Shown: positions 39,001 to 42,000 of the stretch, piece by piece
Layout of the letters: each line of letters begins with the position of its first letter
Position numbering within the stretch: position 1 is the first letter of the stretch
Origin: Thalia democratica
Lineage: Eukaryota
Direction of reading: 5' to 3'
Assembly (NCBI GenBank): GCA_965202585.1
Contig: OZ241826.1
Span: 80,042,001-80,106,000 of the forward strand
DNA length: 64,000 bases
Position numbers: made by a program

Positions 39001-42000
39001 TTCTTCACTTTTTTGATTATTCTTTTTATTTTTTACTATTCGTATGGAAAGCATTGTTTATTTCTTACTTTTTTATAAAACAAAATTTATGTTAGTAACC
39101 ATTTTTTGTACTATATGAAAACAAAAATCATTGCAGTTTGAGATTGCTACCAAGTAAATGGTCTCACCACATAATGCTGAGAGAAGAAAGCAATGTTCTT
39201 CAGACACCATTCACATTCGCATTCGTTCTGATGATGAATGATCACCGATTTTGACATGAGAGCTTTCAGACTCTTCCCGTGATGTCTAATGCTTCTTTTC
39301 CAATCTTTTGCAGTCTCCCTCCCGCTTATCGCTTGGAACTCGTTGGGATGCATCCAGCTTTGCTTGCCCCCAAGCTCGTACAAAATTGACTTGCCTGTAA
39401 AGTAAAGATCCGTAAAGTTCAAAATGAAACGTTGAAAAAATTCTTGAGCTGCTTATTTTCTTTGTAAAAAAACATTTTAAGAATTTAGGTTAAATCTTTT
39501 CTTTTAATTAAATCATTTAAATTAAACGTATAAAACATAAAACAAATAAATACAGTAATACTATTAAAGTTCGCTCTGCTTTGCTAAATCTAAAAAGCTA
39601 AAGCAGTTTACAGATAAAGACGGCACATCGAGCAAAAATCGACTTAAACATGAAAAGAAAACTTCTCTAAAAAATCACGAGCGGCCGGATTGAATGGTAT
39701 TTCACGTTCTGGTCCAACAAACGAAAAAAACGAGGCGAAACATAAGGAATAGTCTGCGTTGCGAGAAGGTAATTAAATTGCAACTAAATACTTTTGTGCG
39801 TTAGCAGCTAGTGTGTTTTTTTGCGCTCGTGATTTTGAATTGCAATCTTCTTTGCAGAACTTTTAACTGTGTGTCAATTACAACATATTTTAAGCCAAAC
39901 ATGCTGTTCTTTTAAGTTTTTTACTTTCAGAATTTTTATAGGTTTTGTTTAAAAGGTCTTTGGCTTTTATTATTTGCTGTTATTGATAGTGTTTTTCTAA
40001 AACTACGAATATTTTATACTAAGTATATGAAAAAAATATTGACACAATGTTTATGTATACTTAAGACAAATAGATATAACATTTATTACAAAGATTTCGC
40101 ACAGTGCATTATTAATTTTAAAGTATATTTTACTTACGCTTAGGTAAGTTCTAAAAGTTATTACACTTAGGTTTTATTAGAAAGAGAATTTAGGTAACTA
40201 TAAAGATTCTTAAATATTTTTATTTATAAAATTATTTTAATAGACTTTACAAGCAGCACAGTTTCGTAAAGGACAAAAACAAAACAATAAAAAATCTTGA
40301 ATGTTGTATACTTTTTAAATAAATTACTTTTTATTTGAACAAACATATAATTTTCTATTATGTAGCAAGAGATTTAACTATAATAAGAAAAGAGTATCCT
40401 ATCTAAATCAATAATTAAATTTGCATATTTATAAAACACTAGACAAAAATAATTTTATTCCGAATTAGTTTTATTTTAATATAGATGTACTGACAAACCT
40501 ATCTTCAAACTTTAAATAATAACTTCAAAAAAACAAAAGCTTGTTTAAACTATTCGAATTTATAATTTATTACTAATTCATATCTGCATCAAGTAAAAAA
40601 ATCAAAATAATACATAAGCTGAACAAACATTTATTAACATAACCCACCTTTGCTACCCTGGCTGAGTCTTGCGATCTAGAGGAGGGCATTGTTGTCGCCG
40701 CAAGTCACCTCCAAAAACTCCTCTCCTCCTTCGTCCTTCTTCACTTCCACCTCCGAGCTGCTCACGTGACCTTTCGGCAGGTTCACCGTCCACCTGCAAC
40801 CCTCTGTTGCCACGTGGTGATGGCTGGTTGCCCCTGGAAACCGGTTTTGAAGTCTCATTTTGCTCACTGAACTTTCCATCAAATCTGCGGATGTTTTTAA
40901 CTTGCATTTAAACAGATTTTAATTTTAAGGTTAAATAAATTTGAGCATTGTAATTTTATCTTTCTACAAATGAAATTATCTATCAAATTTTTTTTGTTAC
41001 AGCTTTATAGCTTGTTTTGGTTACCAGGAGACTCACTTGTAATGATAGTAGAAAATGAAAAGCTTGTTAATTAAAAATTAATTAAAATAAGTTAAAAGTA
41101 ATTACATTGAAACTTATGTTTTCAAATACTCACCGACGACAGTTGTCTTTCAGTTTCATTTTGCTTTCCGAAATAAAAAAAAAAAAGTGAAAAGGCAAAA
41201 CACTCGCAGGTTGCTATTTCAAAGGAAGCTGGAAAGAAAAGGAAGCTCGTCAATCGATAAATTAGACACGCAACCAATGGTGACTCTCAGCAACGCTTCT
41301 ATCGACGAAGGTCGCCATTGTCAACACACAACAACGCAAAGAAAAAGCCGAATAGGTGAGCTGCAATGATGTGACAAAGAATTAAGAGCGGCGATAAAAA
41401 GAAGCTGCGACGGCAGCAGATAATCTTGAGCAGAAGGAAGCGAATAACCGTGACCAGTTTTCAGTGTTTGTATTTCGTAGCTGCATGTACAAACGAAATC
41501 GAATTTTTGCGGTGTCAACGGAGCGATATACAAACATTGATGGCGTTTTGAGAATAAAAAAAAAGAGAACGCCGTTCGACGCATCGTGCCAATTAAAAAA
41601 CTTTAATCTGCCGCTCGCACACCAAACAACGCTAGCTGTGACGTCATAATGATCTCTGTGTAAAAAGTGATTGCATTCGTCACACAACAGGCTTTTCAGT
41701 TTTCTTTGGTATAAAGCGCCGCTCCACAGCTGAGGATCGAACGACGAGAAGCCTTTATTCGCTATTTATCTCCGCGCCACATTTTTAACTTCTTTTTTTC
41801 GATGCGGCCGTTTGAAACTTTCTATCTATCTTTCTTTCTAATAAAACGTGTGAGACGGTTGAAGTGAAAATACTTTCTGCCGAAATTTGCTAAATGATTG
41901 AACGGCAGATAAAAAGCCAGCTTAACTCGCCGCGCTACTCAGAGCTTTTACTTGATTTAAGAGGCGTGTTCCGTGATTTAATGCTTTTCAAAAACGCATC

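What the first reader, a model, noticed from the sequence alone, without database searches (positions are those of the whole stretch)
40676..40678. Copy B: single nonsense codon in a frame-symmetric SAND exon, so possibly a SAM-only decoy rather than a dead gene
Seen: TAC->TAG at the conserved Tyr of ALLY. All other 11 exons and splice sites are intact, with many synonymous changes. Exon 3 is 237 nt with phase 1 at both ends, so skipping it removes the stop, keeps the frame and deletes the first half of SAND. Established: SAM domains of this class polymerise, and SAND binds DNA via KDWK. Inference: B could make a DNA-binding-dead, polymer-competent partner, echoing SAND-less vertebrate SAMD7/short SAMD11 forms. 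Alternatively it is a very recent pseudogene or a base-call error.
Basis: partly seen in the sequence, partly recalled or inferred. Interest (0 to 1): 0.66.

Follow-up and report, generated by a model that had tools for sequence, protein, structure and literature searches.

The report
Young nonsense allele in duplicated SAMD11-like gene
One of three tandem copies of an invertebrate SAND+SAM (SAMD11-like) regulator carries a single, evolutionarily very recent stop codon, so it is most likely a newly disabled duplicate rather than an evolved SAM-only decoy.

Summary
On the minus strand, copy B has TAG at 40678..40676 where copy A has TAC (9415..9413). The site is a Tyr that is invariant in 26 aligned homologues. 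The exon (40884..40648) is 237 nt with phase 1 at both ends, so skipping it keeps the frame. My model has 13 coding exons, not 12. The TAG exon is coding exon 4, and B's other 12 exons are open with AG/GT.

The gene is a SAMD11-like SAND+SAM protein in a tandem array (A, B, partial C). A and B are old duplicates: intron K 0.171, dS 0.153, dN/dS 0.44. Across the SAND exons they differ by 17 synonymous changes, 0 amino-acid changes and this one stop. B's 3' exons, including SAM, are no more relaxed than A's.

So B's SAND was under selection until recently: the stop is younger than about 12-26% of B's history. A long-standing SAND-less decoy is rejected. A brand-new one cannot be told apart from a fresh null allele, a segregating variant or a base-call error without reads and RNA. 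The best reading is a very young loss-of-function allele of a redundant paralogue. Interest is low.

The parts
40676..40678 (-). In-frame TAG (codon 246 of copy B) in place of the conserved Tyr
   Evidence: Copy A has TAC. The Tyr is invariant in the 26-sequence alignment and present in 39 of 40 homologues read.
40648..40884 (-). It encodes a lineage-conserved stretch plus SAND positions about 4-29.
39168..39394 (-). Copy B coding exon 5: rest of SAND with KDWK and a Cys/His tail
   Evidence: SAND, E 3.8e-14; GMEB1 1oqj residues 43-90
43088..43245 (-). Copy B coding exon 3. It ends in phase 1, has an in-frame 9-nt deletion relative to A, and its donor is GTTAGT where A has GTAAGT.
35634..45028 (-). 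Copy B, ATG to TAA, 13 coding exons: 45028..44754, 43610..43515, 43245..43088, 40884..40648, 39394..39168, 38880..38645, 38438..38318, 38243..38177, 38041..37993, 37235..37032, 36426..36373, 36303..36045, 35825..35634
   Evidence: coordinates and AG/GT; per-exon translations; one internal stop only
35634..36303 (-). Copy B exons 12 and 13, which carry the SAM domain
   Evidence: SAM_1 fragments, below cut-off on exon pieces; SAM_1 at 38 bits in the full-length homologue P0002; SAM pLDDT 94-98
3819..13544 (-). Copy A, intact paralogue with the same 13 exons. Exon 4 is 9621..9385, with TAC at 9415..9413.
58762..63878 (-). Copy C, an older paralogue. Exons 6-13 lie in the window and are open; exons 1-5 lie beyond the window end.

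Best explanation
Copy B is a recently disabled member of a tandemly duplicated SAMD11-like (SAND+SAM) gene array. A single C-to-G change turned the invariant SAND Tyr codon into TAG (Y246*). Read normally, B's mRNA gives a 245-residue N-terminal fragment with no complete SAND and no SAM. With nine exon junctions downstream of the stop, the mRNA would be expected to be a target of nonsense-mediated decay.

Shown: the stop, the intactness of everything else, and strong purifying selection on B's SAND and SAM for nearly all the time since the A/B duplication.

Inferred: the change is real rather than a base-call error; it is a null (segregating or just fixed) tolerated because A, C and further paralogues are present; and the transcript is degraded.
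For: (1) The stop and the otherwise intact gene.

(2) A and B are old duplicates. Intron divergence is 1016 of 6648 aligned columns (K 0.171) and dS is 0.153. If B had been neutral since the duplication, about 21 disabling events (stops plus frameshifts) would be expected on its lineage. Observed: this one stop and one in-frame 9-nt deletion. Introns carry 92 indel events (13.8 per kb) against 1 in the CDS.

(3) With no further disabling event, the neutral time since the stop is below about 14% of B's lineage (95% bound).

(4) SAND exons: 17 synonymous and 0 non-synonymous differences besides the stop. My arithmetic from the numbers gives a bound of about 12% of the lineage if all of SAND were free, and about 26% if only exon 4 were free.

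(5) B is not relaxed relative to A where it can be polarised with C (exons 6-8 and 10-13): B has 17 synonymous and 27 non-synonymous changes, A has 12 and 36 (Fisher p 0.18).

(6) Redundancy. There are three copies in the window. Five further exon-4-like ORFs sit in unnamed ENA contigs (P0121-P0125). Decayed exon-3 relics lie in the spacers, so gain and loss of copies is ongoing.

(7) The site is not in a homopolymer.
Against: There are no reads, population data or RNA, so a base-call error, a heterozygous variant or a functional spliced product cannot be separated from a null. B shows none of the usual pseudogene signs beyond the stop itself. The exon is frame-symmetric, so rescue by skipping is arithmetically possible. 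SAND-less SAMD11 isoforms do exist in human retina (PMC11450717, passages). B's N-terminal exons 1-3 carry 18 derived residues against 2 in A when polarised by P0002 (p 0.0004). This shows B had already been diverging in some way before the stop.
Confidence: 0.6

Rival explanations
1. The TAG exon is skipped, by nonsense-associated altered splicing or constitutively. B then makes an in-frame protein that lacks 79 residues, including three of the five SAND strands, but keeps SAM. This protein joins or caps SAM assemblies of A and C without binding DNA.
For: The exon is 237 nt, phase 1/1, and the 43088->39394 join stays in frame. B's SAM exons are constrained: on the B lineage exon 13 has 6 synonymous and 2 non-synonymous changes. 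Nonsense-linked exon skipping is documented (PMC8464065 and PMC6193291, listing and start of abstract only). SAM-only antagonists are known: Mae and TEL2a (PMC3355116, passages). Exon 4's acceptor has a poor pyrimidine tract (0.36).
Against: The SAND part of exon 4 has 0 amino-acid changes and 4 synonymous ones, and exon 5 has omega 0.07. Any skipping regime must therefore be younger than about a quarter of B's history. Exon 4's acceptor (25 of 25 bases) and donor are identical in A and B, and the donor matches 8 of 9 consensus positions. 4 of 11 internal exons are multiples of 3, so the symmetry is what chance gives. None of the 40 homologues read lacks the N-terminal SAND part. SAM self-association of this protein was not tested here.
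Confidence: 0.07
2. Isoform-specific loss. As in human retinal SAMD11, the gene also makes a short SAM-containing isoform from an internal start downstream of the SAND exons. The TAG kills only B's long SAND+SAM form, leaving B as a de facto SAM-only gene with no exon skipping needed.
For: Passages of PMC11450717 say most retinal SAMD11 isoforms lack SAND via a novel first exon. Passages of PMC5062157 describe several alternative N-termini with a shared C-terminal part. B's 3' exons are under at least as much constraint as A's. B's exons 1-3 evolved faster than A's (18 against 2 derived residues).
Against: No internal promoter or alternative first exon was identified in the window. The SAND exons of B were perfectly conserved at the protein level, so the long form mattered until recently. 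The precedent comes from vertebrates only.
Confidence: 0.1
3. Artefact: the G at 40676 is a base-call, polishing or paralogue-mixing error, and B really has TAC.
For: It is a single-base difference at an otherwise perfectly conserved codon in a gene with every sign of being functional. Similar paralogues in a tandem array could mislead polishing.
Against: The site is not in a homopolymer. A and B differ at about 8% of exon positions and 15% of intron positions, so reads should map unambiguously. No paralogue seen carries a G here. From general knowledge, not a call: consensus substitution errors are rare compared with real loss-of-function variants in young duplicates.
Confidence: 0.1
4. The TAG is decoded, by translational readthrough, by A-to-I editing of UAG to UIG (read as Trp), or by a variant genetic code.
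For: An aromatic Trp might be tolerated at an aromatic core position. The PDB relative 1ufn has Phe there.
Against: The 161 nt around the site fold no better than shuffles (z 0.35). None of the 25 longest inverted-repeat pairs listed, out of 69 found in 39400-43100, covers the site. The context UAG-A is not a known readthrough context (recalled). All three copies end in TAA in the ordinary way, and nothing suggests a reassigned code.
Confidence: 0.02

Closest known systems
Vertebrate SAMD11 (mr-s) and the SAMD11-like SAND+SAM proteins of molluscs, chelicerates, echinoderms and tunicates
   Same: N-terminal SAND with KDWK and the CGxNxALLY...QGSKG motif, a long disordered linker and a C-terminal SAM. 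Named hits include 'sterile alpha motif domain-containing protein 11'.
   Different: Exon 5 is only 53-69% identical to named homologues. Here the gene sits in a tandem array of diverged copies. These copies have SQGSKG where the motif is CQGSKG in 37 of the other 40 homologues read. The function in this organism is unknown.
Young unprocessed (duplicated) pseudogene or segregating loss-of-function allele in a tandem gene family
   Same: A single disabling substitution in one copy of a redundant array. Relics of older partial copies lie nearby.
   Different: There is no second lesion and no relaxation of dN/dS. It is at most at the very start of that path, and expression is unknown.
Nonsense-associated altered splicing, or in-frame exon skipping that bypasses a premature stop
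   Same: A premature stop lies in an internal exon whose length is a multiple of 3.
   Different: No transcript evidence exists. The phenomenon is documented mainly in mammals (PMC8464065 and PMC6193291, listing and abstract start only). The skipped product here would lose part of a folded domain.
SAM-only or DNA-binding-less antagonists: Drosophila Mae, human TEL2a, SAND-less retinal SAMD11 isoforms
   Same: The hypothetical B product would keep SAM and lack a working DNA-binding domain (PMC3355116 and PMC11450717, passages).
   Different: Those are made by dedicated genes, alternative splicing or alternative first exons, and are evolutionarily maintained. B shows no such history, because its SAND was conserved until the stop.

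Membership tests
SAMD11-like SAND+SAM proteins | SAND domain (Pfam PF01342) with the KDWK motif | tested here: met
   The exon 5 pieces score 53.4 bits (A) and 52.6 bits (B) against a cut-off of 22. A's exon 4 piece scores 19.8 bits, below the cut-off. AKDWKRS is present in A and B. Exon 5 aligns to the GMEB1 and Sp100b SAND structures.
SAMD11-like SAND+SAM proteins | C-terminal SAM domain (PF00536/PF07647) | tested here: inconclusive
   SAM is split over exons 12 and 13. The separate exon pieces score 14.5-19.2 bits against a cut-off of 23, and exon 13 alone finds no PDB chain. The full-length homologue P0002 scores 38 bits and folds as a confident helical SAM. Exons were not joined, so the window's own SAM was not scored whole.
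SAMD11-like SAND+SAM proteins | Closest named relatives are SAMD11 or SAMD11-like proteins | tested here: met
   In one search, 928 of 939 candidates reached E<=0.001. Among the 120 listed, the named hits are SAMD11, 'SAMD11-like' or uncharacterised SAND(+SAM) proteins, apart from one row that its source names Deformed epidermal autoregulatory factor 1 (partial).
Head-to-tail polymerising SAM domains | Self-association through mid-loop and end-helix surfaces | not tested
   The nearest solved SAMs by sequence are SHANK2/3 and caskin-1 (E 4.6e-5 to 3e-3). No complex prediction was run. Self-binding of mouse Samd11 is taken from passages of PMC7892874 and PMC5062157.
Unprocessed pseudogene | At least one disabling mutation | tested here: met
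   TAG at codon 246.
Unprocessed pseudogene | Relaxed constraint (dN/dS near 1, further stops, frameshifts, lost splice sites) | tested here: not met
   Omega is 0.44 overall, 0.25 for exon 4 and 0.07 for exon 5. On the B lineage there are 17 synonymous and 27 non-synonymous changes against 12 and 36 for A. There are no frameshifts and all sites are AG/GT.
Unprocessed pseudogene | Loss of expression or of protein | not testable with these tools
   No RNA or read data are available.
Nonsense-bypassing in-frame exon skipping | The stop lies in an internal exon whose removal keeps the frame | tested here: met
   237 nt, phase 1/1.
Nonsense-bypassing in-frame exon skipping | Transcripts joining the flanking exons | not testable with these tools
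   No transcript of locus B was found. The database ORFs nearest to B's exon 4 are other copies and all include the exon.

The most novel reading that the evidence does not exclude
B is caught at the moment of birth of a SAM-only regulator. One nonsense change in a frame-symmetric exon, or the same change acting only on the long isoform, converts a DNA-binding SAND+SAM repressor subunit into a DNA-blind SAM partner. That partner would cap or dilute the assemblies made by its intact tandem neighbours A and C. It would be a one-step evolutionary route to a Mae- or TEL2a-like antagonist.
Probability: 0.12. Interest if true: 0.55.

Novelty: new member of a known kind. Interest (0 to 1): 0.2.

Why it matters
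As it stands, this is an ordinary event: a fresh loss-of-function change in one copy of a tandemly expanded transcription-regulator family. Its main use is for annotation. B should be flagged as carrying a premature stop, not silently 'repaired' or modelled with a skipped exon. It also marks copy turnover in a SAMD11-like array of an AT-rich invertebrate genome. It would matter more only if transcripts showed that B still yields a SAND-less, SAM-bearing protein. That would be a dated example of how dominant-negative SAM partners arise from full-length paralogues.

Tried and rejected
(a) Looking for locus B in other assemblies or transcripts. Searches with B's pre-stop exon-4 peptide gave 4 of 4 candidates at near lengths and 2 of 7 at longer lengths. 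All are other copies: P0121 is 96% identical but has different residues and a different flanking intron.

(b) RNA editing or structure at the site. The local fold has z 0.35, and no inverted repeat among the 25 longest of 69 covers the TAG (one search was a format error that I corrected).

(c) A B-specific weakening of exon 4's splice sites: there is none.

(d) A cryptic phase-1 donor upstream of the TAG (AAAG|GTCACG, read). It is present in both A and B and has C at intron position +3, so it gives no reason to favour its use.

(e) Gene conversion as the cause of exon conservation. dS (0.153) is about equal to intron K (0.171), so conversion is not needed.

(f) PDB searches with single exon peptides. 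A's exon 4 gave only chance-level hits (E >= 0.42) and exon 13 gave none.

(g) Rfam and tRNA scans of the window found nothing.

(h) Pfam on 12 long ORFs in the G+C-rich conserved blocks found nothing.

(j) The organism was not identified. The closest records are unnamed and I did not trace them.

(k) Not done: joining exons into a spliced CDS or protein, complex prediction of SAM copies, and fold search (the model's overall pLDDT of 49 is too low).

Full report
**What is at the coordinates**

Read on the minus strand, 40678..40676 is TAG in the frame ...N A L L * I A R L S Q G S K. The paralogous position in copy A (9415..9413) is TAC. The exon carrying it runs 40884..40648: 237 nt, CCGCAG| before it and |GTGGGT after it. 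There are 206 nt before the TAG and 28 nt after it. The exon therefore starts with two bases that complete a codon and ends with one base of the next, which is phase 1 at both ends. The upstream exon ends at 43088 with one codon base and the downstream exon starts at 39394 with two. The window has no N, is about 27% G+C, and is not human.

**Gene model**

Pfam finds SAND split over two exons and SAM fragments in the last two. A search with B's exon-5 peptide returned 928 of 939 candidates at E<=0.001. It was led by two unnamed records: P0001, a genomic ORF 95% identical, and P0002, a 772-residue full-length protein 83% identical. Below them came named SAMD11, SAMD11-like or 'uncharacterized' SAND(+SAM) proteins of molluscs, chelicerates, echinoderms, tunicates and fishes at 53-69% identity.

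I mapped P0002 onto the window and inspected A/B/C alignments. This gives 13 coding exons in A (13544..3819) and in B (45028..35634). They sum to 2184 and 2175 nt, both multiples of three, and all internal boundaries are AG/GT. A third, older copy C (exons 6-13, 63878..58762) runs off the window end.

B's only in-frame stop is the TAG, at codon 246 of 725. The natural database protein P0002 served as the full-length stand-in.

**The residue**

The Tyr is invariant in an alignment of 26 homologues (Y252 of P0002). I read it in 39 of 40 homologues: 39 records named for non-human species plus P0002, chosen from the 120 listed. The mayfly record has Leu. It aligns with Tyr in the Sp100b SAND structure and Phe in 1ufn.

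An AlphaFold model of P0002 has mean pLDDT 49; the SAND blocks are at 56-85 and SAM at 94-98. In it the Tyr is the last residue of the third strand. Three strands (230-232, 238-244, 247-252) fall in the exon-4 part. Two strands and the helices with KDWK fall in the exon-5 part. Skipping exon 4 would thus remove about the first third of SAND (Pfam positions up to 29 of 76), not half. Loss of the fold is my inference.

**Age and selection**

The window is a tandem array with a unit of roughly 31.8 kb. A and B units are 77-87% identical, and C is 70-84% identical to either. Introns of A and B differ at 1016 of 6648 aligned columns (K 0.171), and exons at 172 of 2174. Nei-Gojobori counts summed over separately handled exons give dS 0.153, dN 0.068 and omega 0.44. 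By exon, omega is 0.25 for exon 4, 0.07 for exon 5, 0.42 for exon 12 and 0.27 for exon 13, while the linker exons range from 0.19 to 2.9. Because dS is about equal to intron K, exon similarity does not come from conversion.

Introns carry 92 indel events (13.8 per kb). The CDS carries one, an in-frame 9-nt deletion in B's exon 3. In exon 4 codons 21-78 plus exon 5 codons 1-68, A and B differ by 17 synonymous changes, no amino-acid change, and the stop.

If B had been neutral since the duplication, about 21 disabling events would be expected on its lineage. With none after the TAG, the 95% bound on neutral time is about 14% of the lineage. From zero non-synonymous changes, my arithmetic on the same rates gives about 12% if the whole SAND were free. 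It gives about 26% if only the SAND part of exon 4 were free, which is the exon-skipping case.

Polarising with C (exons 6-8 and 10-13) gives 17 synonymous and 27 non-synonymous changes on B against 12 and 36 on A. Seven sites were unresolved and exon 9 was not included (Fisher p 0.18). B's 3' half, SAM included, is therefore not relaxed.

A long-standing SAND-less role is excluded. What remains is an event too recent to leave any trace other than itself. That could be a new null allele (fixed or segregating), a brand-new exon-skipped or short-isoform product, or an error.

Nothing in the sequence favours skipping. Exon 4's acceptor (25 of 25 bases) and donor are identical in A and B, and the donor matches 8 of 9 consensus positions. 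4 of 11 internal exons are multiples of three. None of the 40 homologues read lacks the N-terminal SAND part.

The precedents in print are real but work differently. Passages of PMC11450717 say that all but one of the SAMD11 isoforms detected in human retina lack SAND, through a novel first exon. PMC5062157 (passages) reports many alternative N-termini with a common C-terminus and self-association of mouse Samd11 through SAM. PMC7892874 (passages) reports Samd11-Samd11, Samd11-Samd7 and Samd11-Phc2 binding. PMC3355116 (passages) describes Mae and the SAM-only TEL2a isoform as antagonists. For nonsense-associated splicing I saw only the listings and abstract starts of PMC8464065 and PMC6193291. 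Supplements were closed and are not needed for these points.

An internal-start short isoform is therefore a second route by which B could remain a SAM-only gene. I found no evidence for such a start in the window.

**Other routes past the stop**

The region does not fold better than shuffled sequence (z 0.35). No inverted repeat among the 25 longest of 69 covers the site. All three copies terminate normally at TAA. Editing, readthrough or a variant code is unlikely.

**Error versus real**

This cannot be tested here. Database searches with B's own exon-4 peptide found only other copies. P0121, P0122, P0123, P0125 and P0002 keep ALLYIARL, which is five of six records. P0124 diverges before that point. 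The site is not in a homopolymer, and A and B are different enough for unambiguous read placement. I therefore put an artefact at about 10%.

**An unexplained asymmetry**

Polarised by P0002 at the protein level, B carries 18 derived residues in exons 1-3 against 2 in A. A carries 14 in exons 10 and 13 against 1 in B (p 0.0004 and 0.001). The C-based polarisation agrees for exons 10 and 13. This mosaic could reflect divergence of function between the copies, or conversion with paralogues outside the window. It does not bear on the SAND result, but it shows that B was not simply a frozen twin of A.

**Verdict**

The decoy reading is not supported as an evolved state and cannot be tested as a nascent one. 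The best explanation is a very young loss-of-function allele in a redundant tandem paralogue of a SAMD11-like gene (confidence about 0.6). It is a new member of a known kind, and of low interest unless RNA data show a SAND-less product.

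Noticed in passing
window 11113-11222 (+), about 42340-42450 (+), 24220-24329 (-), 52016-52125 (-): An element of about 100 nt is present in intron 3 of A and B and, inverted, in both inter-copy spacers. The spacer copies are 93.6% identical to A's, while the neighbouring exon-3 relics have decayed to 78-88%. It can form an imperfect 25-bp hairpin without covariation. z is -3.1 to -3.5 for the spacer copies and only -0.7 to -0.8 for A's copy. 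There is no Rfam match. It may be a conserved small-RNA or regulatory element, or a repeat core.
   Followed up: partly
window 23263-23333 and 51258-51324 (inverted), 30661-30700 (direct): Short decayed fragments of coding exon 3 (QLNHHQLVSTQ...) lie in the spacers between the copies. They are relics of older partial duplications.
   Followed up: partly
window 10041-10230, 10696-10819, 12409-12586, 14717-14845, 15495-15611, 16432-16891, and their B counterparts: G+C-rich non-coding blocks in introns 1 and 3 and upstream of exon 1 are 92-95% identical between A and B, against about 85% for introns overall. They hold long ORFs in several frames but have no Pfam match. They could be promoters, UTR exons or regulatory elements, or an unannotated overlapping gene.
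   Followed up: partly
A exons 1-3 (13544..11614) vs B exons 1-3 (45028..43088); A exons 10 and 13 vs B exons 10 and 13: Mosaic rate asymmetry. B has 18 derived residues against 2 for A in exons 1-3. A has 14 against 1 for B in exons 10 and 13. B also has a 3-codon deletion in exon 3.
   Followed up: partly
A 5918-5822 / B 37863-37767 (minus strand, intron 9): A conserved block of 97 nt (92% identity) is flanked by AG and GT, like a cassette exon. By my reading of the sequence printed, including it between exons 9 and 10 would bring in a stop, so it may be a poison exon.
   Followed up: no
window 58762-63878 (-), copy C: Copy C's exons 6-13 are all open, including exon 9 at about 62923-62964. 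It is 70-84% identical to A and B at the DNA level, so it comes from an older duplication. Its intron between exons 9 and 10 holds low-complexity repeats that translate as PDPD/SGSG at about 60800-62600.
   Followed up: partly
database records P0121-P0125 and P0001 (unnamed ENA contigs): At least five further distinct exon-4-like ORFs and one exon-5-like ORF exist, 74-96% identical to B. The family therefore has more copies than the three in the window, in this or closely related genomes. I did not trace their origin.
   Followed up: partly
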